Assembly (NCBI GenBank): GCA_000004985.1
Contig: GG738912.1
Source of the DNA: Naegleria gruberi
Taxonomy: Eukaryota
Strand: one strand, 5' to 3'
Length of the DNA: 64,000 bases
Below the pieces are notes generated by a model. That model did not search any database, was not told the DNA's origin, and saw only the letters and a program-made list of their open reading frames with translations. A program made the translations under genes and the position numbers. Positions 1,842-62,307 of the stretch are shown piece by piece. Each line of letters opens with the position of its first letter. Position 1 is the first letter of the stretch.

Positions 1842-2729
1842 ATGGTAGCATCAAGCGAAGAAGAACACGATCAGGAAACATCAACAACAGCTGCATCACT
1901 TTCGATATCAAGTGTTGTTGGTGGAATTAAAAATTTACTTGGTGAATTATTTGACAAGGCATCAACTGAAGAAATTGATCATGTAATTGCATTGACAGGA
2001 TTTAATGCATTGAAAGCTTATACATGTTTATTGGAAAAGTATCCTCCACCTACTGTTCCGGTGTCAAATGTTGTGGAACAGCAGCCATCTGTCAGTAGTC
2101 AAAATATTCCCCTGACACAACAATATTTTCAACCATCACAATTACCAATTCAACATGTTCATCAAAATATTGATCCGATGATGATGAGCCAATTTATGAT
2201 GCAAAATCAATTTATGCCTGTCGGATGTCAACAATTCAATCAAATTCCTCAATTTCAACAACAGCAACCTATGAATCAATCTACATGTATTTTGATGAAT
2301 GATGGAATGGGAAGACAATATTATATGATTTCTGATCCAAGTCAAATGTCAAGTAATAATTCAATGATGGTCAGCAGTGGAATTACAACTTCCAACCCAA
2401 CTCCTCAACCATCTTCTACATCAATTACAGCATCTACTTCAATTGCAACTCAAACATCTACTTCTAATACACCTGCCACATCAACGCAACCTGCCACCAC
2501 TCATGTCACCATTGACAAGAAGAAGAAATGTAAAGATTGGGACAAATGTACTCAAACTGGCGACCAAACACACGTTGAGAAATTCTTCCATCCATGCAGA
2601 AATGGATCTCATTGCAAGAATATTGAAAATGTCATTCATCAAAATAGATTTGTTCATCCTTGTAAAGATGGAAAGCAATGTAAGAAGAAGGATGATAATT
2701 TACACAATATTATGTTTACTCATAAATAA
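1842..2729 (+). CDS. UBA-like, Q/S/T-rich protein with two C-terminal PBZ-type zinc fingers
   Basis: 295-aa ORF with an A-rich start context. N-terminal EEIDHVIALTGFNALKAYTCLLEKY is UBA-like. It is followed by Q/M/S/T-rich low complexity. The C-terminus has CKDWDKC..H, PCRNGSHCKNIENVIHQNRFVH and PCKDGKQCKKKDDNLHNIMFTH. Confidence 0.5.
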   Translation: MVASSEEEHDQETSTTAASLSISSVVGGIKNLLGELFDKASTEEIDHVIALTGFNALKAYTCLLEKYPPPTVPVSNVVEQQPSVSSQNIPLTQQYFQPSQLPIQHVHQNIDPMMMSQFMMQNQFMPVGCQQFNQIPQFQQQQPMNQSTCILMNDGMGRQYYMISDPSQMSSNNSMMVSSGITTSNPTPQPSSTSITASTSIATQTSTSNTPATSTQPATTHVTIDKKKKCKDWDKCTQTGDQTHVEKFFHPCRNGSHCKNIENVIHQNRFVHPCKDGKQCKKKDDNLHNIMFTHK

Positions 2730-2796
2730 AATCAATGCTTTTGCTTGTCAAATTGTGAATTCACTTGTCAAATCATCGTTTTACCTGTCAAAAAAA

Positions 2797-4527
2797 ATGT
2801 TACCTTATCGTCCGCCTATTGTTCAGCCAATTCAACAGTTAATTCCGGTGTATTCCTACATGCCATCAACTTCATCATCGCCTGCCACTCCAACCAATGA
2901 TCAATCACATCAATCAACTGCCACAAATCAAAATAATCAGCAAAGTATTTGCAAATTTGGTCCAAATTGTCCCAACTATGACCAATGTACCTCTCTTCAT
3001 CCATGCCGTTACGGAGAAGATTGCAGAAGAATTTCAAGAGTTGTTAACAAGACTCAGAAATTACAAGACATTGTTCACTGTTCCAAATGTTTCCATATTT
3101 GTAAATGGGGTGAGAAGTGCAAATATTTGAATGATGAAGAACATGTAAATATGTTTCTTCACACGTGTACTAAATCAAATTGTAAAGATGAAGTTCACAA
3201 AGAGAGATTTAGACATAAATGCAAATATGGAAAAAATTGTCGTTCCTTAGATGGAAAATATGAAAATTGGGAACATTATGTCAAGTTTATTCATCCTAGG
3301 ACTAATGGAGTTATGAGACATGTAGAAAAACAAATGTATTATCTATTTTCTGAAATATCTAATGATGAAAGCAATTCAAAAACTGCTCAATCTGACATTC
3401 CTGGTTTGACACTTGTAAAGAAGAGTACACTCAAACCACAAGTGAAAGATAGAAAACGATCTGCCAAATGTGAAATTTCCACAATCGATGGTAAATCCAC
3501 AGAGTATTATTTCATTGGGTATGAGAAGGGTGCTGGAAATTCGTCAACTTCAAAAGTCGTTTGTTTTAAAGAGACTGGAAAGGGAGTTTTTGAAGGTCAT
3601 ATTAAGGTAGTTGCAGAATCTAGTTGTGTATTTGATGGAAATGCAAAGATTGAACAACCTTGGTATCATTCAAAAGTTAATGTTTATAGAAATACTGTCA
3701 TTAGTCAAGTATTTGATGAAATTTTGAAACAAGGTTTGAATGGAGTGAGCCCAAATGCTACCTATATCGATGTTATGAAATACATGATAGAACAGCATGA
3801 TATTCCAATATTTATTGTTGGAGGAGCTGTCAGAGATGTCATTCGAGAAGTGATTGTTGAAAAAAAGACCAATGCCTTACAAATTATGAATAATATTAAG
3901 GATATTGATATTGGATTTGGTTGTGATCCACAGACATTTCATGGACGCCTCACTCGAAAATATAAATCAGGTGTTCCAATTCCTGGACCTCGTGGACTAG
4001 TTCAAGTAGGAAGCTCCAATGGTTCTGATCTATTCCTGGAAGGTAAAGCCATTAATGGTTTAAATAATGATAATAAGAGTGTGAAAGCACAAATTGCTCA
4101 ATGTTATGGAACTAATCTGAGAGGAGAAAACATTTGTAGAGATTTCACATGTAATTCTCTTTGGTATGATCCAATCAATAAGTGCATTATTGATACTATT
4201 GGAAATGGGCAAGGAATTAAGGACGTAATTTCAAAAAATTTACGAATTCCTGTAAAACCAAGAGATTGGGAATTTTGGGTTTCTGGCAATCCAACAAAGT
4301 TGATGAGATTTTACAAATTCCTTTTGAAGGGATATTCTGCAGATGCCAAAACTAAATCATTCATAATTGAACAAGTTAAAAGTGGTAAATTTATTAGTGA
4401 TATGGAAATTAGAACTCAATACACAAAAGGAATTGGAAAAGCCAACAAAGCAAGGTTGGAGAATTTGTTGAGAAGTGATTTTGGTGATCAGTTTTACAAT
4501 AATTATTTCGCTAATCATATTAAATAA
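2797..4527 (+). CDS. PBZ-type zinc fingers fused to a class II (CCA-adding enzyme / poly(A) polymerase family) nucleotidyltransferase domain
   Basis: Start is ATG at 2797 (aaaaaaaATG), in frame with track ORF 2377..4527. The track's upstream extension overlaps gene 2 in another frame and I judge it spurious. Four PBZ-like fingers: CKFGPNC, CRYGEDC, CKWGEKC..H..H, CKYGKNC..H..H. The head domain shows IFIVGGAVRDV...KDIDIGF (GGxVRD + DxD) and ENICRDFTCNSLWYD (compare RRDFTINAL). The tail is RIPVKPRDWEFWVSGNPTKLMRFYKFL. Confidence 0.55.
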   Translation: MLPYRPPIVQPIQQLIPVYSYMPSTSSSPATPTNDQSHQSTATNQNNQQSICKFGPNCPNYDQCTSLHPCRYGEDCRRISRVVNKTQKLQDIVHCSKCFHICKWGEKCKYLNDEEHVNMFLHTCTKSNCKDEVHKERFRHKCKYGKNCRSLDGKYENWEHYVKFIHPRTNGVMRHVEKQMYYLFSEISNDESNSKTAQSDIPGLTLVKKSTLKPQVKDRKRSAKCEISTIDGKSTEYYFIGYEKGAGNSSTSKVVCFKETGKGVFEGHIKVVAESSCVFDGNAKIEQPWYHSKVNVYRNTVISQVFDEILKQGLNGVSPNATYIDVMKYMIEQHDIPIFIVGGAVRDVIREVIVEKKTNALQIMNNIKDIDIGFGCDPQTFHGRLTRKYKSGVPIPGPRGLVQVGSSNGSDLFLEGKAINGLNNDNKSVKAQIAQCYGTNLRGENICRDFTCNSLWYDPINKCIIDTIGNGQGIKDVISKNLRIPVKPRDWEFWVSGNPTKLMRFYKFLLKGYSADAKTKSFIIEQVKSGKFISDMEIRTQYTKGIGKANKARLENLLRSDFGDQFYNNYFANHIK

Positions 4528-4569: not shown

Positions 4570-7500
4570 TTAATTTTTTCTATTCCTTTTTGGTTTAGAA
4601 ACAAATGTTGGGACTCTTGTGAGTGATTGTTTTTCATATTCAAACTCTATCGCGGAAAAATGGTTATATTGTTCACCAAAGTATCCTCTAGCTTCTTGGT
4701 TTCCATTTTTAGCAGCTTTCAACAACCAGAGTGTTCCTTGTGTTACATCTGTTTCACATAATAACTTTCCCAACGCCAACTCTGCATCTGAATTTTGTTG
4801 TTGAGCAGCTTTGAGCAACCATGAATGTGCAAGCTTAATGTTTTTCGGGACAACCTTATCAAGTCCATACATATAAATCATTCCAAGAGAATATTGTGCA
4901 TTTGAATTTCCTTGATTAGCAGATTTGCAATACCACTCAAAAGCAAGTGAATAATTGGGTGTTTGGATGATATTAAGTGTATGATGATAAATGCAAGCTA
5001 CTTCATATTGGGCTTCATTATTTCCAAGTTCAGCAGCTTTTTGATAGTAATCCCATGCTTTTTGATTATCCTTTAATTCTTTATAGAGATATCCTAAACG
5101 AAAGAGTGCTTCTGAATTCTTCACATCAGATTCTACTGCTTTTAGATACCATATAATGGCCTCATGTTTATCCAATAAAACACCATCACCCAGCTCATAC
5201 ATTTCTCCAATATCATATTGTGAATCAGAATCATTGAATTTTGTAGATGCTTCCAAATACAATTCGTGTGCTTCTTGATAATTACCCTTATTAAAAAACA
5301 TTCTAGCCACATTTCTAAGAGCTTCAATATGCGTACTTATTATTTCAGCTTCTCTAAAAATAAGTTTTCTATATTCTTCATCAATTTCCATTCTTTTTAA
5401 ATTCATATTATTACCTAATATAATGTGTTCGCCAGAAACTAAGATATCTGTAGTAATAGTAGAAAGCTTTTGCTTGGATAAATCGAGTGCTTTTTGGTAA
5501 AGTTTAAATGCCAACAATTCATTACTTGATATTCCATTATCACCATCTTCAAGCATTGATGCAACATAATTAATGGCAGGAATATAGTTACTATCATATA
5601 CTTTCTTAAATAGCTCAAAAGTTTCGGTATTGTTTGTTTTGGAATAATGAATAGCTTGTTGGAATAATTTCTCCCCTTTATCATTACTAACTTCCAAAAT
5701 CATATCCAATTGACTTGCAGAATATAAAACTCCATATTCCACGCCTTCCATTTCTAAAGTATTAACGTTCATCTCATATTGGTTTCTTCTTTGAGCATCT
5801 TCTATAAAATAAGAAATCAATTTTCTTTTTTGAGAATCATTATTTAACACTAAAGAGTAGAGAGTGTAATTATTTTGCTCTGATTTCTCCATTTCTAAAA
5901 TGTGAGAGGAGAAGTTTGGGATTAGAATAAATCTGCTTTTGTCTTTGATTAAATGGCCCATTTTTAAACCAAATTGTGTGACAGATTTTAGAGAGGAATT
6001 TAGAGAAATAATATGCACCTCCTTGTCCTTAAGAAATAATACAAAAAATCTCCAAAAAAGGTCCATCATTTCCGAGACCATTTGAACTCGCTGTTTCTTT
6101 TTGTTAATCTGTTTGAAAATAGTTTGAAATAATTCCTTATAAATATCTTCCATCCTTTTTTGATAATCATTTGGTTTCGTGTTGTTTTTGAAAATATTTG
6201 CTATCTTGTACTTGATAAATGTGATTAAATGTTGTCTGTCATCTACACGTGCTATTTGAGAATTTGGGTCTTTAAACTCTAATTTTTGAGAAACTAACAA
6301 TTGCATACTATCATATAATTTACCAACTAGAGAAACACTGCGCCTCAATGGACCATGTTTGTTCTTGTGGTAGTGTGGAAAGCCAGGGAATTTTTCAAGT
6401 AGTTCTAAATCTTGTGCATTTACAGCAACACTGTAGTTGCCTTTTTTGGGAGCGTCGATAGCCCTGTTGATGAGAGTACATAATCTTTCCATGTTATTCC
6501 AGTATTTTCGTGACCATTGATTTCCATAAAAATCAGCAAACAAATGACGAATTCCAATCAAGTCTTTGAATATATCAGGATCGAATGATCGTGTCTCATT
6601 GTAGTCGTCATCAAAAGATCCTGGATCGAACTCTACTAATGATTCTACTAGTTCGTTATCCCAACATGCAAAATATTGATCTCCATCTAGATCAGATCCT
6701 GCAATCATATTTGTTATTGGTCTACTTCCTTTTGTAGGAAAAACAATAACATCGTAAAGAAAATTCAATTCAGGAATGTTGACTGCCTCTAATTTTCTCA
6801 GGTCACCACGATGTAAGCATGGCTCTTTAGTGACAATCACAGTATTCTCAATTACATTCTTCTTCTTTGGATCATTTAGAGAGGAAACTTGAATAAATAT
6901 TTGACCTTCTTTGAGTACTCCGAAAGGATCTGCTATTCCGTACAACCTTCTAGAACTGTAACAAGGAATTCTCAAGGAGAGTATTTGGTTTCTGTAGGGG
7001 CCTGTCAGGAAAGCAAGCTTTTTGCTTTTTAGAATGGAAAGAACGTTAAGAGAGGCATAGTCTCCTTGTTTTACGTACTGATCAAAAACCTTGTCAATGT
7101 CCGATTCTGAAATATAGTTTTTCATCAAATTTTCAATATGTTTACAGGCCTTTTGGTTTAGTATTTCGAATATCTTTCCTTGTTTTGTTTCATCTTCACA
7201 CCCTTCTAAAATGTGCATAATTGTCGAATTGATTCTAGCAAAATCACAGGGGCTTGAATAACCTACGATGCATAAATTATTAATTATATCATCATCAGTG
7301 TTTGGGTGTTCAATTTTCATCATTGATTTCCTTAGCACTAAATGGTGACCATACACCTTTTCCGCATTTGGATGGATGTAAACCATGCCTTTGGCTCCTC
7401 TAAATCTTATTTGGTATGCACAGGGAAGATATTCATTGACTAGAAACTCTACTCCATCATTTTCTTCGTAGATACCATCTTCATCCATCGATTGTTTGCT

Positions 7501-8724
7501 CTGGTATTTCAATAAATTTTTAGATTTACGAACAATTTCATAAACTTTCATAGCCAATTCAAGAGAAATAAATCCACATCCATCGGTGAAAAGTCCCTCA
7601 TCATTAATAACAGTGTATTCTGAAACTCCAATAGTAGGAATAACAGGAGTATTAAATAAAGCCAGTCTTAAACTTTGCTTTAATTTGTTATTCTCAAAAT
7701 AAAGATCCCTGTTCAATGTATCTGGAATGGCCCATGTTTTTACATCATGTATTGATAGGGAAGAATTGTTTGGAAGTTTGGAAAGATCAGGACACATGTA
7801 AATAAATCGATAAGAATGCATTCCACTCGTATTTTGACACAGTTTCTGGAATGTAAATCCAGCAATATGTAAAGGCTCTTCTCTTTCTATATATGGCTCT
7901 ATTAGCCTGAATGATTGGTTATCCATTAACACTCTGCTAATGTGCTTTTGGTCTTTCATTAATTTCAATGTTTCCTCATCGAATTTTCCTTCCTTGAATT
8001 GATTTAAATATTGTCTCAATAATACTATATCTCCATGATCCTCTGATTTTGATTCCATAGCCACTTGATCCTTCAATTCAATATTATTTAAAATTTCAGG
8101 GTGCTCTCCAGTAGATTCAAGAATCATTTGAGATTTGAAACCCATTCTCAAAAAGCTAAATCCAACATTCAACACTGTATTCACACCAAATTTTTGTCTA
8201 AACCTACTCTGTAGCCATCTATCTTGTTGTGAGCTGTTGAATCGAATGGCAAGAATGGGTGATATCTTTGGTTTGTAAAAACAATATAAGGTTGCTGTTC
8301 TAGTCCTAAACATTGTCTCTGATTCGTCCAATTCTTCTGTTGTTTGCTTACTTGGAGATGAAAGGTTTAAATTCTGATGATCCTCTTCCTTCTCTGTTAT
8401 TGTTGCTAACAACCACCGATGAAGAGCCTCTAATCCTATCGGATAGGCAATCACTGCCATCCTAGAAACTCTCTTTAATATTTCATAGCGATCGACGAAG
8501 GACATTCCACAATACTTTTCCCCTCTCACATTTTTGAAATTAAATTCCAAATATTTGGTACAATCATCAAAATTTCTAATGATCGGAATGGATTCAATCA
8601 TGTAATAAGTTGCCAATAAATCCTTTACGTAATTTTCATCTTGTCTATTCATAAACTTTAACTCTTCAAGTTGTTGAATCTTTTCAAGCTTTGAGAACCC
8701 AGAAACAAAAGACAATACGGACAT
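4570..8724 (-). CDS. Eukaryotic cellular RNA-dependent RNA polymerase (RDR family) with C-terminal Sel1-like (SLR/TPR-like) repeats
   Basis: 1384-aa uninterrupted ORF starting aaaaaaaATG. It carries the RDR catalytic signature: VIVTKEPCLHRGDLRKLEAVNIPELNFLYDVIVFPTKGSRPITNMIAGSDLDGDQYFACWD. Other RDR blocks are present: DGCGFISLELA, RFRGAKGMVY, LRKSMMKIEHP, YRNQILSLRIPCYSSRRLYGIADPFGVL. The C-terminal ~300 aa are tandem Sel1-like units (AxxWYxKAAxxGNxxAQYxLGxxY...). Confidence 0.75.
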   Translation of the reverse strand: MSVLSFVSGFSKLEKIQQLEELKFMNRQDENYVKDLLATYYMIESIPIIRNFDDCTKYLEFNFKNVRGEKYCGMSFVDRYEILKRVSRMAVIAYPIGLEALHRWLLATITEKEEDHQNLNLSSPSKQTTEELDESETMFRTRTATLYCFYKPKISPILAIRFNSSQQDRWLQSRFRQKFGVNTVLNVGFSFLRMGFKSQMILESTGEHPEILNNIELKDQVAMESKSEDHGDIVLLRQYLNQFKEGKFDEETLKLMKDQKHISRVLMDNQSFRLIEPYIEREEPLHIAGFTFQKLCQNTSGMHSYRFIYMCPDLSKLPNNSSLSIHDVKTWAIPDTLNRDLYFENNKLKQSLRLALFNTPVIPTIGVSEYTVINDEGLFTDGCGFISLELAMKVYEIVRKSKNLLKYQSKQSMDEDGIYEENDGVEFLVNEYLPCAYQIRFRGAKGMVYIHPNAEKVYGHHLVLRKSMMKIEHPNTDDDIINNLCIVGYSSPCDFARINSTIMHILEGCEDETKQGKIFEILNQKACKHIENLMKNYISESDIDKVFDQYVKQGDYASLNVLSILKSKKLAFLTGPYRNQILSLRIPCYSSRRLYGIADPFGVLKEGQIFIQVSSLNDPKKKNVIENTVIVTKEPCLHRGDLRKLEAVNIPELNFLYDVIVFPTKGSRPITNMIAGSDLDGDQYFACWDNELVESLVEFDPGSFDDDYNETRSFDPDIFKDLIGIRHLFADFYGNQWSRKYWNNMERLCTLINRAIDAPKKGNYSVAVNAQDLELLEKFPGFPHYHKNKHGPLRRSVSLVGKLYDSMQLLVSQKLEFKDPNSQIARVDDRQHLITFIKYKIANIFKNNTKPNDYQKRMEDIYKELFQTIFKQINKKKQRVQMVSEMMDLFWRFFVLFLKDKEVHIISLNSSLKSVTQFGLKMGHLIKDKSRFILIPNFSSHILEMEKSEQNNYTLYSLVLNNDSQKRKLISYFIEDAQRRNQYEMNVNTLEMEGVEYGVLYSASQLDMILEVSNDKGEKLFQQAIHYSKTNNTETFELFKKVYDSNYIPAINYVASMLEDGDNGISSNELLAFKLYQKALDLSKQKLSTITTDILVSGEHIILGNNMNLKRMEIDEEYRKLIFREAEIISTHIEALRNVARMFFNKGNYQEAHELYLEASTKFNDSDSQYDIGEMYELGDGVLLDKHEAIIWYLKAVESDVKNSEALFRLGYLYKELKDNQKAWDYYQKAAELGNNEAQYEVACIYHHTLNIIQTPNYSLAFEWYCKSANQGNSNAQYSLGMIYMYGLDKVVPKNIKLAHSWLLKAAQQQNSDAELALGKLLCETDVTQGTLWLLKAAKNGNQEARGYFGEQYNHFSAIEFEYEKQSLTRVPTFVSKPKRNRKN

Positions 8725-8906: not shown

Positions 8907-10094
8907 TTACCACCAAAATACTATGTCAGTATTAGTCTGTTTGGAAAATTCATCACTAATTTTGTTTCCACTCACGTCTAATAATTGTAAATTCTTCATT
9001 TGTGTGATTGCCTTAAGTCCTTCATCCGTTATTTCATTGTTATTTACATATAAAATAGATAATTTCTCTAATTCACTAATGTAGTGTGCTCCTTCGTCTT
9101 GAATATCATTGAGTGAAATATCTAGTTCAGTTACGCGTTGCATTTTGCTGATAAATTTTGCTCCAGTTGGGCCAATTTCGCAATTATTGATCAAAAGTGT
9201 TGTCAATTGTTCAAGTTCACCGATTGATTCTGCTCCTTGTTGTCCAATTAAATTGAAACCAACATTGATAAATGTCAAGCCTTTCAGTTGGCTAATTGAA
9301 TTGGCTCCTTCCTCTCCAATTCCATTACTACTAACATCTAGTTTGGTTAAATTCTTCATATGGCTTATTGAATACATTCCTTCATCACCAATGTTATTGC
9401 TGCCAATGAAAAGCTCTCTTAATTGATCTAATTGTGCAATGAGTTCTGCTCCTTGTATTCCAAGATCATTATCATTAATTCTGAGAGAGGTTAAATTTCT
9501 CATCCCACTAACTACCTCCACATCCAAACATTTGAGCTTAGTGTATGACATGTCCAGAATAGTCAATTGCTTCATATCTTTAATTTTACAAACTGATTCA
9601 AAACTAAATCTATTTCCAGAAACATTAAGTTCTTTCAATTGCTTCATTTGTGAAATTACACTGATTTCTCTATCAGAAATTTTACAAAACACAACATGAA
9701 GCCTCCTTAAATGCTCGCATCGTGCAATGCTCTCTATTGCATCAATAGTTATTTCATTCTTGTTATTAATAACAAGAGAATTCAGCCTTTGTGCCATTTC
9801 AATTCCATTCCAAAATCTTTCATTCTGAATTCTTGCTCTGACTTCAATATTCGTAAAATATGATAACCATTCAAAATGTTCAATATTAGAATGTCTATTA
9901 ATTATTACTATTGAAAGAATCGATCGTTCCCTAATTACATTCATCCATTGTTTAGAAATTAATAAACAATTCTTCAATAGGAATTTGTGATCCGCGTCTA
10001 CAAAGGAGAGAATTTCAAAAATTACATCATCAGAAAATAATTCTTGATGTTGTGATTTGATGCGGGTGGAATCTTCTACGTGATTGTTGAGCAT
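8907..10094 (-). CDS. F-box-like / RI-type leucine-rich-repeat protein
   Basis: N-terminus DDVIFEILSFVDADHKFLLKNCLLISKQWMNVI is F-box-like. It is followed by about 10 RI-type 24-28 aa LRRs (LxxLxxLxISxNxIGxEGAxxISxLxx). Start is A-rich (aaaaaaaaATG at 10094). Confidence 0.6.
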   Translation of the reverse strand: MLNNHVEDSTRIKSQHQELFSDDVIFEILSFVDADHKFLLKNCLLISKQWMNVIRERSILSIVIINRHSNIEHFEWLSYFTNIEVRARIQNERFWNGIEMAQRLNSLVINNKNEITIDAIESIARCEHLRRLHVVFCKISDREISVISQMKQLKELNVSGNRFSFESVCKIKDMKQLTILDMSYTKLKCLDVEVVSGMRNLTSLRINDNDLGIQGAELIAQLDQLRELFIGSNNIGDEGMYSISHMKNLTKLDVSSNGIGEEGANSISQLKGLTFINVGFNLIGQQGAESIGELEQLTTLLINNCEIGPTGAKFISKMQRVTELDISLNDIQDEGAHYISELEKLSILYVNNNEITDEGLKAITQMKNLQLLDVSGNKISDEFSKQTNTDIVFWW

Positions 10095-11432
10095 TTTTTT
10101 TTAATTTTTTTAAAAAAACATTAATGGAAATTTCAGAGACCAAATAACTTGAACGATCAAAGGCAGAATCTACAACTGAGAATGACTTGGTTTGAGAATC
10201 GTATCCAGTGGCCAAAACGAAATGTTCAGTCTTCTTTCCAGGTGGTTTGATTAGTTTCAAGATGACCATTCTTCCTTCACACAAGTTTCGAATAGTTACA
10301 GACATGTCAGTGGTTATCCCTGAGAATTTCACACCAAATTGTTTGTTAATGGATGCCCAGATAAATAAGTTTCCATCCTTGAAACCACGATTTTTCTTCA
10401 ACCATTCGTTCATTTCTTTTGGTGTCCATTCGGTTCTTCCCAAACCTTTCAATCCAGAAGTAATGGCCGAAAGAAGACAACCAGCTTTACAAATTGTTGA
10501 ACTTCCACTTCCTAATTTGAGAGATCCCCATCTTGTATCACATTGCTTAAAGACTGTGAATTGAGTATGAACATATCCTGGATAACATTCCTTTTTTGGA
10601 GGATTAGGTTTTATGGATATTTCTGGTTTTGGAGGAATTGGAATAGGTCTTGGAGATTCTTGTGGAATTGGAACAGGATTAGGTCTAGGAGAAGGTCTAG
10701 GATCTGGATGTGGTTTAGGAGAAGGAACTGGTGGCACAGGTTTTGGTGATTCATGTGGCACTGGTGGAACAGGTTTTGGTGAAGGGATTGGATTTGGAGG
10801 AATTGGCTTTGGTGAAGGAATTGGAATTGGTGGAGTTGGAGGATTCGGTTGGGGTGGATTTGGAATTGGTGGGACTGGATTTGGACTGGAGGAATTGGAA
10901 TAGGTCTTGGTCCTCTACAACATGGTCTGGCACAGTTGTTTCCTTGTTGTGGAATTTTCAAATCCAAATTGACATTGACGTTTTGTCTACTTCCTCCATT
11001 GGAAGATGCTGAGCTGGAGGAAGAAGCAGAGGCAGATGCAGGTTGTTGGATAATGATTGTTTGAGGAGGTGGTATAATTGGTTTAATCATTGGAACATTG
11101 AGAATGATATTTTGAGGAGGGAAGAAACACTTAGGTTTCTTGCAAGGTTTAGTTGGTTTTCTAATTGGTTTCTTACATGGTTTCTTTGGTTTCTTTCCAA
11201 TCACATGGACAATAAATCCAGGACTCTTGTTATTTCTACACTTGAGTCTTCTAATATTGGATCTAATCTTTCGAGATTTGGACGAAATTCTTTCAGTGTC
11301 CAAAGTAATCACTTGGACACTTCTTCTTTCATGATTTGCTGAGTCGCTTGCCAACACAGCAGCACTAAAGAAACAAATTAACAATAGTGTGGCCAACAAG
11401 AAAGCTGTTTTCACAATCAAATTGCTGAACAT
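10030..11432 (-). CDS. Secreted Lys/Pro-rich protein with a C-terminal papain-fold C39-like (BtrH/YvpB-type, Cys-His-Asp) peptidase domain; reading frame interrupted near 10885
   Basis: Start ATG 11432 (tcaaaaaaATG) gives a signal peptide MFSNLIVKTAFLLATLLLICFFSAAVLAS. Then come basic KKPxKP repeats and Pro-rich sequence (PRPIPIPP), which continues in a second frame from about 10905 (SPNPVPPIPNPPQPNPP...PKPHPDPRPSP). The C39-like domain follows: QCDTRWGS..TICKAGCLLSAITSGL...HFVLATGYD...VVDSAFD. The two frames meet at ccaGTcca (about 10885), consistent with a 1-nt indel. The C-terminal end overlaps the 5' end of the next gene and may be a read-through. Confidence 0.4.
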
Positions 11433-11650: not shown

Positions 11651-12788
11651 TTATTGGTTGGAAATATTAGAGCATGTGGACAAACAGCGATTATCATCCC
11701 CATCTTCGTTGATAGTTGTCATTGGTGTGGAAGTTTGAATCTGTAGTTGACCTTCCTCAACATTAACTGAACTTGAAATATTACTATTTGCATTATCATG
11801 ATCAATTAAATGTTTCAATACCACCTTTCTGATTTGGAAGAGCACAAACCATGATAATCTTATCATGACCAATACCAAGGAAATCTTGATAGTTTCTCCT
11901 GGTAAGAATGGAACTAAACCCTTCTCAATTCCCTTAGAGAGTCCAAGATTTGGCACTCCGAATGCCAACCATCCACATCCAAATACAAATGTAACAGCAT
12001 TCGATAGACACAACATGAGGAGATTCATCATGATGGTACGATCTGAAGCCATTTTGGAGCAAAACCAACCACAAATCAGTGCACTAAAGACAAAACCAAT
12101 GAGGAAACCACTACTACTCGACTGGAACAAGACCAGATTTCCATGTGTTTGATTGGAAAACCAAGGAATATCAAGAACAGAACCACAGAATAAATAGAGG
12201 AGAATACTGAGTGGAGCAATGACAAAACCAGTTAAGGAGCCAAGCCACAAGACACCAAAAGTTTGTCCAGTGATTGGAACGGCACTAATGGAGGAAGGGA
12301 GTGAAATGGAAATTTGAGCACAAACTCCCATCAAGCATGCTCCAAAGATAACCAACAACATGTTGGAAATGAAGGGAACGACAGCATTGGAAACGATTGT
12401 TTTCAAAAGTGGATGGCATGTGCCAAGTTTCAAATGCCACTTTTTTACAAGATCAAATCTTCTCTCACTCTTGATAAGAATGAGATCAAAAACTGAACGC
12501 ATGAGTGCCATGTATGCATCCAAGAATGAAGGATACCAACTTGGGTTGACCAAGATTTTCACAGGAGGTTCCTCTTCAACCATTGGTGTAGAAGTGCTGC
12601 CAATTCTACCAATTGAGTGGTCTTGTCCTCTTCTTCTTCTAATCTGTGATATATTTTCAGATTCAATGGTGAGATGTTGCTGAGAAACTTTATATCCAAG
12701 CTTTCTTTCAATTTCCTTGCCCAAATCATCAATTCTGCTTGACGATTCAAATGACTCACCAAGTGGGGACACTACAAGATATTGCATG
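11651..12788 (-). CDS. BioY-family (biotin ECF-transporter S-component-like) membrane protein with a eukaryote-style N-terminal extension
   Basis: Strong BioY blocks: CAQISISLPSSISAVPITGQTFGVLWLGSLTG, ILLYLFCGSVLDIPWFSN..GNLVLFQSSSSGFLIGFVFSALICGWF, FGCGWLAFGVPNLGLSKGIEKGLVPFLPGETIKISLVLVM. Likely ATG at 12788 (aaaaaaacaccATG), with about 130 aa N-terminal to the BioY core. Confidence 0.6.
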
Positions 12789-13160
12789 GTGTTTTTTTTG
12801 TATTGTTTTTCTCTCAAGATCTTGTGAGGAGAGAACTCGAAGCTCAATAGAATTTGATTCTTCTAAGTGTTTGGGGAGACCGAAATATTCGGAAGTTTTG
12901 AAAAGATCCGTTTAATGTGTAAGCAATTCTGAACCTTCTTTAAGGATTTTTAATAATCACGAACGACTCCCCGAATACAATATGGTTTCACACATTGTAA
13001 ATTTAACAGAGTTACGAATATTAAATTATAATTAATCTAATTAATAATAAAGCATCAATATATTGCTAACTAGATTGCTAATCAATCATGCATGGATTTG
13101 AAACTAGATCCAATATCTATCACGTAAATATTCAAAACTCATTAATAAAACATGAATTGT

Positions 13161-56207: not shown

Positions 56208-57778
56208 ATGGAGGTAAAACAAGAAGGTTGGTATTTCGAAGGGTTATTTTCAAAATAATAATTAATGGATTGAATTGTTAATTAATAGAGAATGTTATAT
56301 TTTCGGATGATGTTTGTTTTGAAATTATTTGCATGATTGATGATTCGTGGTTTATTTTGAATAATTGTTCTTTAATTTCAAAACAATGGTTTAATGTGAT
56401 AAAGGAACGTTCAAAACTTGTTATTCAATTTACAAAACAATTAACAGAAAAAAGAATTGAATTGTTAATGAAAAGTCAATTCATGAATAGTATTGTAAAT
56501 GTTAAGTTTTCTTGTGGCTTGCTTAACTCTTCAGATAAACTTAAATTCATAAGTGAAATGAAACAATTAACATCACTTGATATACATTCCAATGAAATTG
56601 GTGTAGAAGGAGCCAAATTCATAAGTGAAATGAAACATTAACATCACTTGATATACATTACAATGAAATCGGTGTAGAAGGAGCCAAATACATAAGTGAA
56701 ATGAAATCAATTAACATCACTCGATATATATTCCAATGAAATTGGTGTAGAAGGAGCCAAATACATAAGTGAAATGAAACAATTAACATCACTTAATATT
56801 GGTTACAATGAAATTGGTGTAGAAGGATCCAAATTCATAAGTGAAATGAAACAATTAACATCACTCGATATATATTCCAATGAAATTGGTGTAGAAGGAG
56901 CCAAATACATAAGTGAAATGAAACAATTAACATCACTTGATATACATTACAATGAAATTGGTGTAGAAGGATCCAAATACATAAGTGAAATGAATCAATT
57001 AACATCACTTGATATACATTCCAATCAAATTGGTGTAGAAGGAGCCAAATACATAAGTGAAATGAAACAATTAACATCACTTGATATACATTACAATGAA
57101 ATTGGTGTAGAAGGATCCAAATACATAAGTGAAATGAATCAATTAACATCACTTGATATACATTCCAATCAAATTGGTGTAGAAGGAGCCAAATTCATAA
57201 GTGAAATGAAATCATTAACATCACTTGATATACATTACAATGAAATTGGTGTAGAAGGATCCAAATACATAAGTGAAATGAAATCATTAACATCACTTGA
57301 TATATATTCCAATGAAATTGGTGTAGAAGGAGCCAAATACATAAGTGAAATGAATCAATTAACATCACTTGATATGCTTCCAATTAAATTGGTGCAGAAG
57401 GAACCAAATTCATAAGTGAAATGAAACAATTAACATCACTCGATATATATTCCAATGAAATTGGTGTAGAAGGAGCCAAATACATAAGTGAAATGAAATC
57501 ATTAACATCACTTGATATACATTACAATGAAATCGGTGTAGAAGGATCCAAATACATAAGTGAAATGAAATCATTAACATCACTTGATATATATTCCAAT
57601 GAAATTGGTGTAGAAGGAGCCAAATACATAAGTGAAATGAAACAATTAACATCACTTGATATTGGTCACAATGAAATCGGTGTAGAAGGAGCCAAATTCA
57701 TAAGTGGAATGAAACAATTAACATCACTCGATATATATTCCAATGAAATTGGTGTAGAAGGAGCCAAATACATAAGTG
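56208..57778 (+). CDS. F-box-like / RI-type LRR protein, inverted paralogue of 37760..39327; partial (runs into assembly gap) with internal frame breaks
   Basis: Micro-exon ATGGAGGTAAAACAAGAAG (56208..56226) is followed by a 62-nt intron (56227..56288, donor GTTGGT). Exon 2 encodes ENVIFSDDVCFEIICMIDDSW..., with the same N-terminal sequence as the other locus. The 72-bp LRR repeats run from about 56560. A 1-nt loss near 56636 creates a stop, and the frame resumes at 56774 and 57421. Confidence 0.5.
56560..57778. repeat. Tandem array of near-identical 72-bp LRR-coding repeats abutting the gap
   Basis: About 17 units of ttaacatcac ttgatata(c/t)attccaatgaaattggtgtagaagga(g/t)ccaaa(t/a)tacataagtgaaatgaa(a/t)caa. 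Confidence 0.8.
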
Positions 57779-60700
57779 NNNNNNNNNNNNNNNNNNNNNN
57801 NNNNNNNNNNNNNNNNNNNNNNNNNNNNNNNNNNNNNNNNNNNNNNNNNNNNNNNNNNNNNNNNNNNNNNNNNNNNNNNNNNNNNNNNNNNNNNNNNNNN
57901 NNNNNNNNNNNNNNNNNNNNNNNNNNNNNNNNNNNNNNNNNNNNNNNNNNNNNNNNNNNNNNNNNNNNNNNNNNNNNNNNNNNNNNNNNNNNNNNNNNNN
58001 NNNNNNNNNNNNNNNNNNNNNNNNNNNNNNNNNNNNNNNNNNNNNNNNNNNNNNNNNNNNNNNNNNNNNNNNNNNNNNNNNNNNNNNNNNNNNNNNNNNN
58101 NNNNNNNNNNNNNNNNNNNNNNNNNNNNNNNNNNNNNNNNNNNNNNNNNNNNNNNNNNNNNNNNNNNNNNNNNNNNNNNNNNNNNNNNNNNNNNNNNNNN
58201 NNNNNNNNNNNNNNNNNNNNNNNNNNNNNNNNNNNNNNNNNNNNNNNNNNNNNNNNNNNNNNNNNNNNNNNNNNNNNNNNNNNNNNNNNNNNNNNNNNNN
58301 NNNNNNNNNNNNNNNNNNNNNNNNNNNNNNNNNNNNNNNNNNNNNNNNNNNNNNNNNNNNNNNNNNNNNNNNNNNNNNNNNNNNNNNNNNNNNNNNNNNN
58401 NNNNNNNNNNNNNNNNNNNNNNNNNNNNNNNNNNNNNNNNNNNNNNNNNNNNNNNNNNNNNNNNNNNNNNNNNNNNNNNNNNNNNNNNNNNNNNNNNNNN
58501 NNNNNNNNNNNNNNNNNNNNNNNNNNNNNNNNNNNNNNNNNNNNNNNNNNNNNNNNNNNNNNNNNNNNNNNNNNNNNNNNNNNNNNNNNNNNNNNNNNNN
58601 NNNNNNNNNNNNNNNNNNNNNNNNNNNNNNNNNNNNNNNNNNNNNNNNNNNNNNNNNNNNNNNNNNNNNNNNNNNNNNNNNNNNNNNNNNNNNNNNNNNN
58701 NNNNNNNNNNNNNNNNNNNNNNNNNNNNNNNNNNNNNNNNNNNNNNNNNNNNNNNNNNNNNNNNNNNNNNNNNNNNNNNNNNNNNNNNNNNNNNNNNNNN
58801 NNNNNNNNNNNNNNNNNNNNNNNNNNNNNNNNNNNNNNNNNNNNNNNNNNNNNNNNNNNNNNNNNNNNNNNNNNNNNNNNNNNNNNNNNNNNNNNNNNNN
58901 NNNNNNNNNNNNNNNNNNNNNNNNNNNNNNNNNNNNNNNNNNNNNNNNNNNNNNNNNNNNNNNNNNNNNNNNNNNNNNNNNNNNNNNNNNNNNNNNNNNN
59001 NNNNNNNNNNNNNNNNNNNNNNNNNNNNNNNNNNNNNNNNNNNNNNNNNNNNNNNNNNNNNNNNNNNNNNNNNNNNNNNNNNNNNNNNNNNNNNNNNNNN
59101 NNNNNNNNNNNNNNNNNNNNNNNNNNNNNNNNNNNNNNNNNNNNNNNNNNNNNNNNNNNNNNNNNNNNNNNNNNNNNNNNNNNNNNNNNNNNNNNNNNNN
59201 NNNNNNNNNNNNNNNNNNNNNNNNNNNNNNNNNNNNNNNNNNNNNNNNNNNNNNNNNNNNNNNNNNNNNNNNNNNNNNNNNNNNNNNNNNNNNNNNNNNN
59301 NNNNNNNNNNNNNNNNNNNNNNNNNNNNNNNNNNNNNNNNNNNNNNNNNNNNNNNNNNNNNNNNNNNNNNNNNNNNNNNNNNNNNNNNNNNNNNNNNNNN
59401 NNNNNNNNNNNNNNNNNNNNNNNNNNNNNNNNNNNNNNNNNNNNNNNNNNNNNNNNNNNNNNNNNNNNNNNNNNNNNNNNNNNNNNNNNNNNNNNNNNNN
59501 NNNNNNNNNNNNNNNNNNNNNNNNNNNNNNNNNNNNNNNNNNNNNNNNNNNNNNNNNNNNNNNNNNNNNNNNNNNNNNNNNNNNNNNNNNNNNNNNNNNN
59601 NNNNNNNNNNNNNNNNNNNNNNNNNNNNNNNNNNNNNNNNNNNNNNNNNNNNNNNNNNNNNNNNNNNNNNNNNNNNNNNNNNNNNNNNNNNNNNNNNNNN
59701 NNNNNNNNNNNNNNNNNNNNNNNNNNNNNNNNNNNNNNNNNNNNNNNNNNNNNNNNNNNNNNNNNNNNNNNNNNNNNNNNNNNNNNNNNNNNNNNNNNNN
59801 NNNNNNNNNNNNNNNNNNNNNNNNNNNNNNNNNNNNNNNNNNNNNNNNNNNNNNNNNNNNNNNNNNNNNNNNNNNNNNNNNNNNNNNNNNNNNNNNNNNN
59901 NNNNNNNNNNNNNNNNNNNNNNNNNNNNNNNNNNNNNNNNNNNNNNNNNNNNNNNNNNNNNNNNNNNNNNNNNNNNNNNNNNNNNNNNNNNNNNNNNNNN
60001 NNNNNNNNNNNNNNNNNNNNNNNNNNNNNNNNNNNNNNNNNNNNNNNNNNNNNNNNNNNNNNNNNNNNNNNNNNNNNNNNNNNNNNNNNNNNNNNNNNNN
60101 NNNNNNNNNNNNNNNNNNNNNNNNNNNNNNNNNNNNNNNNNNNNNNNNNNNNNNNNNNNNNNNNNNNNNNNNNNNNNNNNNNNNNNNNNNNNNNNNNNNN
60201 NNNNNNNNNNNNNNNNNNNNNNNNNNNNNNNNNNNNNNNNNNNNNNNNNNNNNNNNNNNNNNNNNNNNNNNNNNNNNNNNNNNNNNNNNNNNNNNNNNNN
60301 NNNNNNNNNNNNNNNNNNNNNNNNNNNNNNNNNNNNNNNNNNNNNNNNNNNNNNNNNNNNNNNNNNNNNNNNNNNNNNNNNNNNNNNNNNNNNNNNNNNN
60401 NNNNNNNNNNNNNNNNNNNNNNNNNNNNNNNNNNNNNNNNNNNNNNNNNNNNNNNNNNNNNNNNNNNNNNNNNNNNNNNNNNNNNNNNNNNNNNNNNNNN
60501 NNNNNNNNNNNNNNNNNNNNNNNNNNNNNNNNNNNNNNNNNNNNNNNNNNNNNNNNNNNNNNNNNNNNNNNNNNNNNNNNNNNNNNNNNNNNNNNNNNNN
60601 NNNNNNNNNNNNNNNNNNNNNNNNNNNNNNNNNNNNNNNNNNNNNNNNNNNNNNNNNNNNNNNNNNNNNNNNNNNNNNNNNNNNNNNNNNNNNNNNNNNN

Positions 60701-62307
60701 NNNNNNNNNNNNNNNNNNNNNNNNNNNNNNNNNNNNNNNNNNNNNNNNNNNNNNNNNNNNNNNNNNNNNNNNNNNNNNNNNNNNNNNNNNNNNNNNNNNN
60801 NNNNNNNNNNNNNNNNNNNNNNNNNNNNNNNNNNNNNNNNNNNNNNNNNNNNNNNNNNNNNNNNNNNNNNNNNNNNNNNNNNNNNNNNNNNNNNNNNNNN
60901 NNNNNNNNNNNNNNNNNNNNNNNNNNNNNNNNNNNNNNNNNNNNNNNNNNNNNNNNNNNNNNNNNNNNNNNNNNNNNNNNNNNNNNNNNNNNNNNNNNNN
61001 NNNNNNNNNNNNNNNNNNNNNNNNNNNNNNNNNNNNNNNNNNNNNNNNNNNNNNNNNNNNNNNNNNNNNNNNNNNNNNNNNNNNNNNNNNNNNNNNNNNN
61101 NNNNNNNNNNNNNNNNNNNNNNNNNNNNNNNNNNNNNNNNNNNNNNNNNNNNNNNNNNNNNNNNNNNNNNNNNNNNNNNNNNNNNNNNNNNNNNNNNNNN
61201 NNNNNNNNNNNNNNNNNNNNNNNNNNNNNNNNNNNNNNNNNNNNNNNNNNNNNNNNNNNNNNNNNNNNNNNNNNNNNNNNNNNNNNNNNNNNNNNNNNNN
61301 NNNNNNNNNNNNNNNNNNNNNNNNNNNNNNNNNNNNNNNNNNNNNNNNNNNNNNNNNNNNNNNNNNNNNNNNNNNNNNNNNNNNNNNNNNNNNNNNNNNN
61401 NNNNNNNNNNNNNNNNNNNNNNNNNNNNNNNNNNNNNNNNNNNNNNNNNNNNNNNNNNNNNNNNNNNNNNNNNNNNNNNNNNNNNNNNNNNNNNNNNNNN
61501 NNNNNNNNNNNNNNNNNNNNNNNNNNNNNNNNNNNNNNNNNNNNNNNNNNNNNNNNNNNNNNNNNNNNNNNNNNNNNNNNNNNNNNNNNNNNNNNNNNNN
61601 NNNNNNNNNNNNNNNNNNNNNNNNNNNNNNNNNNNNNNNNNNNNNNNNNNNNNNNNNNNNNNNNNNNNNNNNNNNNNNNNNNNNNNNNNNNNNNNNNNNN
61701 NNNNNNNNNNNNNNNNNNNNNNNNNNNNNNNNNNNNNNNNNNNNNNNNNNNNNNNNNNNNNNNNNNNNNNNNNNNNNNNNNNNNNNNNNNNNNNNNNNNN
61801 NNNNNNNNNNNNNNNNNNNNNNNNNNNNNNNNNNNNNNNNNNNNNNNNNNNNNNNNNNNNNNNNNNNNNNNNNNNNNNNNNNNNNNNNNNNNNNNNNNNN
61901 NNNNNNNNNNNNNNNNNNNNNNNNNNNNNNNNNNNNNNNNNNNNNNNNNNNNNNNNNNNNNNNNNNNNNNNNNNNNNNNNNNNNNNNNNNNNNNNNNNNN
62001 NNNNNNNNNNNNNNNNNNNNNNNNNNNNNNNNNNNNNNNNNNNNNNNNNNNNNNNNNNNNNNNNNNNNNNNNNNNNNNNNNNNNNNNNNNNNNNNNNNNN
62101 NNNNNNNNNNNNNNNNNNNNNNNNNNNNNNNNNNNNNNNNNNNNNNNNNNNNNNNNNNNNNNNNNNNNNNNNNNNNNNNNNNNNNNNNNNNNNNNNNNNN
62201 NNNNNNNNNNNNNNNNNNNNNNNNNNNNNNNNNNNNNNNNNNNNNNNNNNNNNNNNNNNNNNNNNNNNNNNNNNNNNNNNNNNNNNNNNNNNNNNNNNNN
62301 NNNNNNN
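57779..62307. other. Assembly gap (4,529 N)
   Basis: Continuous n run. Track ORFs containing X strings are artefacts of it. Confidence 0.95.

What the first reader, a model, noticed from the sequence alone, without database searches (positions are those of the whole stretch)
4570..8724. RdRP with a C-terminal Sel1-repeat array and no helicase domain
The catalytic DLDGD core and flanking RDR blocks are unambiguous. The last ~300 aa are tandem Sel1-like repeats (W-Y-x-K-A-A-x-x-G-N-x-x-A-Q-Y-x-L-G). Cellular RdRPs I know of have no Sel1 fusions; Dictyostelium RrpA-C carry an N-terminal helicase-like domain instead. This could be a new recruitment/scaffolding solution for an RdRP.
Basis: partly seen in the sequence, partly recalled or inferred. 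Interest (0 to 1): 0.65.

Follow-up and report, generated by a model that had tools for sequence, protein, structure and literature searches.

The report
Naegleria RdRP with fused Sel1 repeats
This is a real, already-annotated Naegleria gruberi gene for an RNAi-type RNA-dependent RNA polymerase with a built-in Sel1-repeat protein-docking tail, a lineage-restricted and unstudied variant of an otherwise ordinary enzyme.

Summary
Window 4570..8724 (-) is one uninterrupted 1384-codon ORF. It is identical over its full length to the deposited Naegleria gruberi model XP_002670772.1 / UniProt D2VYX5 / NAEGRDRAFT_81763. Residues 1 to about 1000 form a complete QDE-1/RDR2-type cellular RdRP body: Pfam RdRP 265 bits, DLDGD at 678-682, predicted fold matching QDE-1 at E 6e-27. 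There is no helicase domain and no Walker A motif. Residues 1047-1356 are a Sel1-like repeat (SLR) alpha-solenoid of 7 units plus a half unit (Pfam E 4.8e-36; predicted fold matches bacterial SLR proteins and SEL1L).

The fusion is not a gene-model artefact. Two N. gruberi paralogs and one metagenomic ortholog keep RdRP-SLR in the same order. It is also not unrecorded, because the precomputed Pfam annotations already list PF05183 plus PF08238.

Related heterolobosean RdRPs carry other C-terminal interaction modules: SLR+TLDc, LRR, or TPR+zf-MYND. The N. lovaniensis copy has none. Among the 150 closest of 3212 RdRP relatives, SLR occurs only in the Naegleria clade.

The most likely role is a covalently attached adaptor that routes this paralog to a partner or site. 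This role is inferred, not shown. It is a modestly interesting new variant of a known kind.

The parts
4570..8724 (-). Complete single-exon gene (1384 codons plus stop at 4570-4572) = N. gruberi XP_002670772.1 / D2VYX5 / NAEGRDRAFT_81763
7882..8724 (-). aa 1-281: N-terminal region conserved in the Naegleria RdRP clade; predicted to be part of the RdRP body (QDE-1 'slab'-side region), not a helicase
   Evidence: No Pfam hit. Conserved across 5 clade members. Included in the roughly 900-column Foldseek alignment to QDE-1. No Walker A motif.
6307..7881 (-). aa 282-806: Pfam RdRP (PF05183) catalytic region
   Evidence: E 1.8e-78; sequence hits to RDR2 and QDE-1 in the PDB; family-wide near-invariant residues all present
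6679..6693 (-). Catalytic loop DLDGD (D678, D680, D682)
5587..6306 (-). aa 807-1046: helical 'neck/head'-like tail of the RdRP body, conserved within the clade; ends at about the point where the N. lovaniensis homolog stops
5479..5586 (-). aa 1047-1082: first Sel1-like unit, positionally conserved in paralogs P0002-P0004
5332..5478 (-). aa 1083-1131: degenerate, low-confidence helical insert between Sel1 units (local GC dip)
4657..5331 (-). aa 1132-1356: six contiguous Sel1/TPR-like units plus a capping half unit; predicted alpha-solenoid with pLDDT about 90
4573..4656 (-). aa 1357-1384: low-confidence C-terminal tail ending in the basic, NLS-like KPKRNRKN
   Evidence: the NLS-like reading is my inference from the sequence

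Best explanation
This is a functional, single-exon Naegleria gruberi gene for a cellular (RDR/QDE-1-type, double-psi-beta-barrel) RNA-dependent RNA polymerase. Its complete polymerase body (aa 1 to about 1046) is covalently followed by a Sel1-like-repeat alpha-solenoid of 7 units plus a half unit (aa 1047-1356).

Shown here: the enzyme's identity, an intact catalytic site, the absence of a helicase, the reality of the fusion, and its age, which predates the duplication that produced paralog D2VAG1.

Inferred: the polymerase makes complementary RNA or dsRNA for the Naegleria small-RNA pathway. The SLR solenoid would then be a built-in protein-protein adaptor. It would dock this paralog onto a specific partner, template-bearing complex or compartment, a job done in trans for other RdRPs (SGS3, Pol IV, Hrr1/Cid12, DRH-3/EKL-1, GTSF-1). 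Sister RdRPs with LRR, SLR+TLDc or TPR+zf-MYND in the same position suggest that the C-terminal module sets paralog-specific routing.
For: Identity: Pfam RdRP at 265 bits and Sel1 at E 4.8e-36. DLDGD is present, as are all family-wide near-invariant residues. The AF2 model of aa 1-1040 (pTM 0.72) matches QDE-1 at E 6e-27 and RDR2 at E 2e-23 over about 900 columns. The AF2 model of aa 986-1384 matches SLR crystal structures 6ok3, 4bwr, 8sxq, 6deh and 1ouv, and SEL1L. PDB sequence hits to SLR proteins reach 3e-41.

One gene: the ORF is identical to the deposited model, and ORF statistics exclude chance. P0002's SLR aligns colinearly with this one at E 4e-11 and 8e-8. The same domain order occurs in P0002, P0003 and P0004. 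P0003 and P0004 are 60% identical in the SLR, against 65% in the tail and 80% in the core.

Module swapping: P0005 and P0008 carry RdRP-LRR. Willaertia P0011 carries RdRP+TPR+zf-MYND in one ORF. N. lovaniensis P0009 stops where the SLR would begin.

RNAi context: N. gruberi Dicer homologs are used in published phylogenies (PMC4791657).
Against: There is no expression, interaction, localisation or activity data for this protein. No paper in the searchable library mentions it. No orthologue of this particular paralog was found in another species, so purifying selection on its own SLR is not shown directly. P0001 and P0002 are only about 25% identical in the SLR. N. lovaniensis manages without the module, so it is not essential for the clade's RdRP function. 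SLR solenoids can also mediate self-association or autoinhibition.
Confidence: 0.6

Rival explanations
1. The SLR array acts in cis rather than as a recruiter. It would mediate homo-oligomerisation (QDE-1 works as a dimer) or fold back to gate the template or product channel as an autoinhibitory lid released by a signal.
For: SLR/TPR solenoids do oligomerise: DELE1 appears among the fold hits. The flexible low-confidence linker and insert (aa 977-1040 and 1083-1131) would allow the array to fold back. The module is dispensable in N. lovaniensis, which fits a regulatory add-on.
Against: Sister paralogs replace the SLR with unrelated scaffolds, LRR or TPR+MYND. That is easier to reconcile with swappable partner-binding modules than with a co-evolved intramolecular lid.
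Confidence: 0.2
2. The variable C-terminal solenoids (SLR, LRR, TPR) are sensor domains, as in NLR/STAND immune receptors. They would bind proteins of viruses or transposons and so trigger dsRNA synthesis on invader transcripts at the place where they are made.
For: The conserved enzymatic body combined with a rapidly diverging, swappable superstructure-forming repeat is the architectural signature of conflict systems. The paralog family is expanded and includes an inactivated copy, P0012.
Against: This rests purely on an architectural analogy. No positive-selection test was possible and no invader ligand is known. The genes are not clustered with defence genes in this window, and no viral relatives were found.
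Confidence: 0.1
3. The architecture is a gene-model or assembly artefact: two adjacent genes, an RdRP and a Sel1 protein, read as one.
For: No transcript evidence was available here. There is a GC dip to 0.23 inside the array, at aa ~1100-1150.
Against: There is no stop for 1384 codons, while the other two frames contain 106 and 144 stops. The same order and frame are kept in three other genes on different scaffolds or contigs, one of them from another organism. The first Sel1 unit follows the conserved RdRP tail motif directly in all of them. The GC dip lies downstream of the first Sel1 unit, not at the RdRP/SLR junction.
Confidence: 0.03
4. The gene is a decaying or catalytically dead paralog, and the Sel1 tail is neutral baggage.
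For: Dead paralogs exist in this clade. N. lovaniensis P0012 has lost the AGSDLDGD loop. The metagenomic P0005 and P0008 carry frameshifts.
Against: This copy keeps an intact 4.15-kb ORF, DLDGD, every near-invariant family residue and Sel1 units that score far above threshold. None of this is expected under neutral decay in a 33% GC genome.
Confidence: 0.05

Closest known systems
Neurospora QDE-1 and plant RDR2/RDR6 (eukaryotic cellular RdRP family, Pfam PF05183)
   Same: The same catalytic family: DxDGD loop, conserved core residues, and a predicted fold that superposes over about 900 columns.
   Different: Sequence identity is only 14-21%. Going by the Pfam results here and my own knowledge of these proteins, QDE-1 and RDR2 have no C-terminal repeat array and meet their partners in trans (RPA/QDE-3, Pol IV, SGS3). 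RDR2 has an N-terminal RRM, which is not detected here.
N. gruberi paralogs D2VAG1 (P0002) and D2VG25 (P0003), and metagenomic P0004
   Same: The same clade, with 46-48% identity in the core, the same N-terminal region and tail, and an SLR array at the same position.
   Different: The SLR arrays are much weaker matches to the Sel1 profile (about 36 bits, against 122 here). P0003 and P0004 add a C-terminal TLDc domain and a long N-terminal extension.
Heterolobosean RdRPs with other C-terminal modules: Willaertia magna KAL9647075.1 (TPR+zf-MYND), metagenomic P0005/P0008 (LRR), N. lovaniensis XP_044542963.1 (none)
   Same: The same design logic: an RdRP body followed by a protein-interaction scaffold in one ORF.
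   Different: The repeat class differs. There is no significant similarity between the Willaertia TPR region and this SLR (E 0.045), so a common origin for the tails is not shown.
Dictyostelium RrpA/RrpB/DosA and other helicase-fused RdRPs (e.g. P0006 from Mya arenaria, P0177)
   Same: These are also RdRPs that have acquired an accessory module in cis.
   Different: Their module is an ATP-dependent helicase. This protein has none. Its add-on is a non-enzymatic scaffold.
SEL1L/Hrd3 and bacterial SLR proteins (LpnE, LceB, HcpC, E. coli c5321); eEF2K as an enzyme with a C-terminal SEL1-like array (own knowledge)
   Same: The same repeat family and solenoid fold. These proteins work as adaptors that bind partners or substrates. 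eEF2K is a precedent for a catalytic domain followed by a C-terminal SLR that recruits the substrate.
   Different: None of them is attached to a nucleic-acid polymerase. The binding specificity of this array is unknown.

Membership tests
Eukaryotic cellular RdRP (RDR/QDE-1 family, PF05183) | Profile match above the curated threshold across the catalytic region | tested here: met
   265.2 bits against a cutoff of 23.8, aa 282-806, profile positions 63-581 of 582
Eukaryotic cellular RdRP (RDR/QDE-1 family, PF05183) | Catalytic DxDGD loop with three aspartates, plus the family's near-invariant residues | tested here: met
   DLDGD at 678-682. Q438, R440, K445, G446, S467, K470, D599, P635, D641, D678/680/682 and W688 are present in a 103-sequence alignment.
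Eukaryotic cellular RdRP (RDR/QDE-1 family, PF05183) | QDE-1/RDR2-like overall fold | tested here: met
   AF2 model with pTM 0.72. Foldseek E 6e-27 to 5fsw/7y7t/2j7n and 2e-23 to 7w82. This is a predicted structure, not a solved one.
Eukaryotic cellular RdRP (RDR/QDE-1 family, PF05183) | RNA-templated RNA synthesis and a role in small-RNA biogenesis | not testable with these tools
   This needs biochemistry and genetics. No publication on this protein was found.
Sel1-like repeat (SLR) proteins (PF08238) | Tandem 31-38-residue units here (typical SLR units are about 36-44 residues) matching the Sel1 profile above threshold | tested here: met
   122.3 bits against a cutoff of 30.7, in 5 stretches. 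Seven units found with my own HMM. PDB SLR proteins hit at 3e-41 to 1e-18.
Sel1-like repeat (SLR) proteins (PF08238) | Antiparallel helix-pair solenoid | tested here: met
   AF2 gives paired 12-14-residue helices with pLDDT about 90 for aa 1116-1351. The top Foldseek hits are SLR crystal structures.
Sel1-like repeat (SLR) proteins (PF08238) | Protein-protein adaptor function | not testable with these tools
   Inferred from the family only.
Helicase-fused RdRPs (Dictyostelium Rrp type) | Helicase domain (Walker A/B, DEAD/Helicase_C or SF1 motifs) in the same polypeptide | tested here: not met
   No helicase Pfam hit. No [AG]x4GK[ST] or DExD/H motif. The N-terminal 281 aa is part of the RdRP body. 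There is no room for a missing upstream exon, because the next gene ends 182 bp upstream.
Heterolobosean 'RdRP + C-terminal solenoid' group (proposed here) | Membership of the Naegleria RdRP clade and a repeat scaffold directly after the conserved tail motif | tested here: met
   Clade scores of 511-671 bits, against 215 bits or less for everything else. NJ tree. Alignment. Modules identified.

The most novel reading that the evidence does not exclude
Heterolobosean RdRPs are modular 'receptor-polymerases'. A conserved RdRP engine would be coupled to fast-evolving, swappable solenoid sensors (SLR, LRR, TPR). These sensors would recognise proteins of specific invaders (giant viruses, retroelements) or specific RNP compartments, so that template choice for dsRNA synthesis is made by protein recognition, as in NLR-type immune receptors, rather than by RNA features.
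Probability: 0.1. Interest if true: 0.75.

Novelty: new variant of a known kind. Interest (0 to 1): 0.35.

Why it matters
How cellular RdRPs choose their templates is a central unsolved point of RNAi amplification. In every studied system the choice depends on separate partner proteins. A polymerase that carries its adaptor in cis, within a small family whose members differ mainly in that adaptor (SLR, SLR+TLDc, LRR, TPR+MYND, none), offers a natural domain-swap series. Pulling down each tail should reveal what directs each RdRP. It would also open up RNAi in Discoba outside the kinetoplastids, where almost nothing is known. On present evidence, though, this is an automatically annotated, lineage-specific architecture with no functional data, so the immediate significance is modest.

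Tried and rejected
1. The search for homologous proteins with a 31-sequence RdRP core profile and with a 103-sequence full-length profile, intended as an architecture survey. Both returned only short fragments or helicases, because candidate pre-selection limits what is scored. They were useless for counting RdRP+Sel1 architectures.

2. Look-ups of the N. gruberi genes by exact product. The N. gruberi genome is not in the positional index, so the neighbourhoods of the paralogs could not be compared.

3. Metagenome scan with the clade alignment. It gave 7 distant RdRP loci, none with Sel1. The viral-contig scan gave no relatives.

4. The review most likely to have described this architecture (Burroughs, Ando & Aravind 2014, PMC4066877) is not held, so prior description cannot be excluded.

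5. Functional linkage with the convergent PolyA_pol-type nucleotidyltransferase neighbour. It belongs to a different NTase family from Cid12/Rdn, has no PDB relative and no testable conservation of adjacency. I left this as a note only.

6. Specific relatedness of the upstream F-box/LRR gene to the LRR tails of P0005. Only generic LRR similarity was found, so I rejected it.

7. Common origin of the Willaertia TPR tail and the Naegleria SLR tail. Not supported (E 0.045).

8. The rest of the window holds ordinary housekeeping genes and no RNAi gene cluster.
Full report
WHAT IS THERE. The window is AT-rich (about 33% GC), gene-dense eukaryotic DNA. The flagged interval 4570..8724 on the minus strand is one ORF of 1384 codons with an ATG start and a single terminal stop. 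Its translation is 100% identical over 100% of its length to a deposited Naegleria gruberi protein: EFC38028.1 / XP_002670772.1 / UniProt D2VYX5 / NAEGRDRAFT_81763, on a 238.6-kb scaffold. The window is therefore N. gruberi nuclear DNA, and the public gene model is exactly this intron-less ORF. At the ORF's base composition a stop is expected every 12 codons or so. A 1384-codon open frame has probability about 3e-51, and the last 338 codons alone about 5e-13. The other two frames of the same strand contain 106 and 144 stops, and 200 shuffles never exceeded 130 stop-free codons.

DOMAINS. Pfam finds RdRP (PF05183) at aa 282-806 (E 1.8e-78, 265 bits) and Sel1 (PF08238) in five stretches (E 4.8e-36), with overlapping weaker TPR-family hits at aa ~1130-1250. 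The catalytic loop DLDGD is at aa 678-682, window 6679-6693. Every residue that is at least 90% conserved in a 103-sequence alignment of diverse RdRPs is present: Q438, R440, K445, G446, S467, K470, D599, P635, D641, D678/680/682, W688 and others.

An AlphaFold2 model of aa 1-1040 (15-sequence alignment, pTM 0.72, core pLDDT above 85) matches QDE-1 of Thielavia and Neurospora (E 6e-27 to 1e-25, about 900 aligned columns) and plant RDR2 (E 2e-23 to 2e-20). The N-terminal 281 residues have no Pfam hit but are conserved among the Naegleria relatives, and they are part of the polymerase body. There is no Walker A or DExD/H motif. The upstream gene ends only 182 bp before the ATG, so no helicase exon can be missing.

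My own parsing of the C-terminus gives Sel1-type units at 1048-1083, 1132-1164, 1165-1200, 1203-1234, 1235-1272, 1273-1310 and 1311-1341, plus a capping half unit. A degenerate roughly 49-residue insert follows the first unit. A model of aa 986-1384 shows regular helix pairs with pLDDT about 90 from aa ~1116 to ~1351. Its best structural matches are Sel1-like-repeat proteins: Oxalobacter 6ok3/6onw/6ork, E. coli c5321 4bwr, Legionella LceB 8sxq and LpnE 6deh, Helicobacter HcpC 1ouv, and human SEL1L. The same proteins are hit by sequence at E 3e-41 to 1e-18.

IS THE FUSION REAL? Independent evidence comes from relatives. The full-length search found two N. gruberi paralogs. P0002 (D2VAG1, 1235 aa) is RdRP+Sel1. 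P0003 (D2VG25, 1745 aa) is RdRP+Sel1+TLDc. It also found P0004, a metagenomic orthologue of P0003 (1811 aa, same architecture, in a single called gene on a 12-kb contig).

All of these align with the query from about aa 40 through the RdRP, through a conserved helical tail, and into the first Sel1 unit at the same position. The SLR of P0002 aligns colinearly with that of the query (BLASTP E 4e-11 and 8e-8). The fusion therefore predates that duplication.

Between P0003 and P0004 the SLR is 60% identical. This compares with 80% in the catalytic region, 65% in the tail and 48% in TLDc. The array is thus conserved in frame between organisms. A two-gene artefact is effectively excluded.

HOW COMMON IS IT? 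An exhaustive HMMER search of 1.84 billion cluster representatives with aa 1-1000 found 3212 RdRP relatives. Only a handful score above 250 bits, and these form the Naegleria clade. Everything else scores 215 bits or less.

I scanned the 152 retrieved proteins with the query's C-terminus and with an HMM built from its seven units. Sel1-like arrays appeared only in P0001-P0004. This covers only the top 5% of relatives. The two attempts at a wider architecture survey failed for technical reasons. A metagenome scan added seven distant RdRP loci without Sel1, and viral contigs hold no relative.

The precomputed Pfam annotation in the protein collection already lists PF05183+PF08238 for P0001-P0004, and UniRef names P0001 'RNA-dependent RNA polymerase'. 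The architecture is therefore on record. However, eight full-text searches found no paper that mentions it or these accessions. The one review that might describe it (PMC4066877) is not held.

THE WIDER PATTERN. This is the most informative result. The nearest relatives carry different things in the same C-terminal position.

- P0005 and P0008, from the same metagenome as P0004, are each followed immediately by an overlapping LRR ORF. At the junctions, the LRR register in L002, and the conserved RdRP tail motif in L011, simply continue in another frame. These are RdRP-LRR genes broken by single frameshifts.
- Willaertia magna KAL9647075.1 (P0011) and a metagenomic relative (P0013) are RdRP+TPR+zf-MYND. 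In Willaertia this is one uninterrupted 5.6-kb ORF.
- N. lovaniensis XP_044542963.1 (P0009) ends where the SLR would begin, and nothing Sel1-like lies downstream. Its head-to-head neighbour P0012 has lost the AGSDLDGD loop.

A neighbour-joining tree groups (P0001, P0002), (P0003, P0004), (P0005, P0008) and (P0009, P0012). The Willaertia TPR tail shows no significant similarity to the Naegleria SLR (E 0.045), so a common origin of the tails is not shown. The picture is a conserved polymerase body with a swappable C-terminal protein-interaction scaffold.

HOW IT MOST LIKELY WORKS. The following is shown: an intact RDR-type catalytic machine fused to an SLR solenoid, with no helicase.

The rest is inferred from established knowledge of the two families. 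RDR enzymes copy single-stranded RNA into dsRNA or short antisense RNAs for Dicer/Argonaute pathways. N. gruberi has Dicer homologs (PMC4791657). RDR enzymes depend on partner proteins for template selection: SGS3 for RDR6, Pol IV for RDR2, Hrr1/Cid12 for Rdp1, DRH-3/EKL-1 or GTSF-1 for nematode RdRPs. SLR solenoids are adaptors that bind proteins on their concave face (SEL1L/Hrd3, LpnE, and eEF2K's substrate-recruiting SEL1-like array). These partner and adaptor examples come from my own knowledge.

The most economical reading is that the SLR is a covalently attached adaptor that routes this paralog to a specific partner or site. The different tails would then give the paralogs different routing. 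I give this about 0.6.

The rivals are as follows:
- Cis-regulation or oligomerisation: about 0.2.
- An immune-receptor-like sensor of invader proteins: about 0.1. This is the most novel reading not excluded.
- A dead paralog: about 0.05.
- An artefact: about 0.03.

CONTEXT. The neighbours are unrelated to RNAi by annotation. They include an F-box-like/LRR gene upstream and a convergent gene 42 bp from the RdRP stop, which has zinc-knuckle-like motifs and a PolyA_pol-type nucleotidyltransferase head domain. Further away are a peptidase C39-like gene, BioY, RGS/DEP, Hsp70, TLC, BTB, P450 and PEMT. The nucleotidyltransferase is worth a note, because RdRP complexes elsewhere contain nucleotidyltransferases. 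It belongs to a different family, though, and the adjacency could not be tested in the paralogs.

VERDICT. The gene is real, intact and already annotated. The RdRP-Sel1 architecture is rare, appears confined to Naegleria, and is apparently undescribed in the literature I could search. The scaffolding idea is reasonable and gains support from module swapping in sister genes, but it is untested. This is a new variant of a known kind, with interest about 0.35.

Noticed in passing
window 1842-2729 (+) and 2377-4527 (+): Two ORFs in overlapping frames look like exons of one gene. It has a UBA-like N-terminus, repeated C-x-C-x-H zinc-knuckle-like motifs in both parts, and then a PolyA_pol head (class II nucleotidyltransferase, PF01743, E 2.9e-8). 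It converges on the RdRP 3' end with a 42-bp gap. RdRP complexes elsewhere include nucleotidyltransferases, but of another family. There is no PDB sequence relative.
   Followed up: partly
window 8907-10094 (-): An F-box-like + LRR_6 (RNI-type) protein gene sits 182 bp upstream of the RdRP on the same strand. It shows only generic LRR similarity (26%) to the LRR tails fused to the related RdRPs P0005 and P0008.
   Followed up: yes
window 10030-10761 (-) and 11651-12847 (-): A peptidase_C39_2-like protein with a proline-rich N-terminus and a BioY-family protein lie here. Both families are typically bacterial, so these are possible horizontal acquisitions in Naegleria.
   Followed up: no
window 57779-62307: This run of N is an assembly gap. 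The five 'ORFs' of about 1550 aa listed across 57421-62397 are artefacts of translating N.
   Followed up: yes
L002 ~6150-6195 and L011 ~3000-3065 (metagenome ERZ27315067): Two Naegleria-clade RdRP genes continue into LRR arrays after a frame change. In L002 the LRR register carries on in another frame, and in L011 the conserved 'FWRCLG' tail motif does. These are RdRP-LRR fusions broken by single-base frameshifts, which may be assembly errors or pseudogenisation.
   Followed up: partly
L010 4762-11357 (N. lovaniensis PYSW02000051.1): A head-to-head pair of RdRP genes, neither with a Sel1 tail. One of them (C9374_011877, P0012) lacks the AGSDLDGD catalytic loop and is probably inactive.
   Followed up: partly
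L012 5001-10613 (Willaertia magna JBEGDK010000121.1): A single 5.6-kb ORF encodes RdRP + TPR + two zf-MYND fingers, another heterolobosean RdRP with a C-terminal interaction module.
   Followed up: partly
window ~5270-5420 (aa ~1100-1150 of the RdRP): There is a local GC dip to 0.23 inside the Sel1 array. It coincides with the degenerate, low-confidence insert between the first and second units. An in-frame retained intron was not excluded.
   Followed up: no
P0003 aa 1503-1666; P0004 aa 1556-1722: The paralog lineage P0003/P0004 carries a TLDc domain after the Sel1 array and a long N-terminal extension. In P0004 the extension includes a Cys-rich, zinc-finger-like stretch.
   Followed up: no
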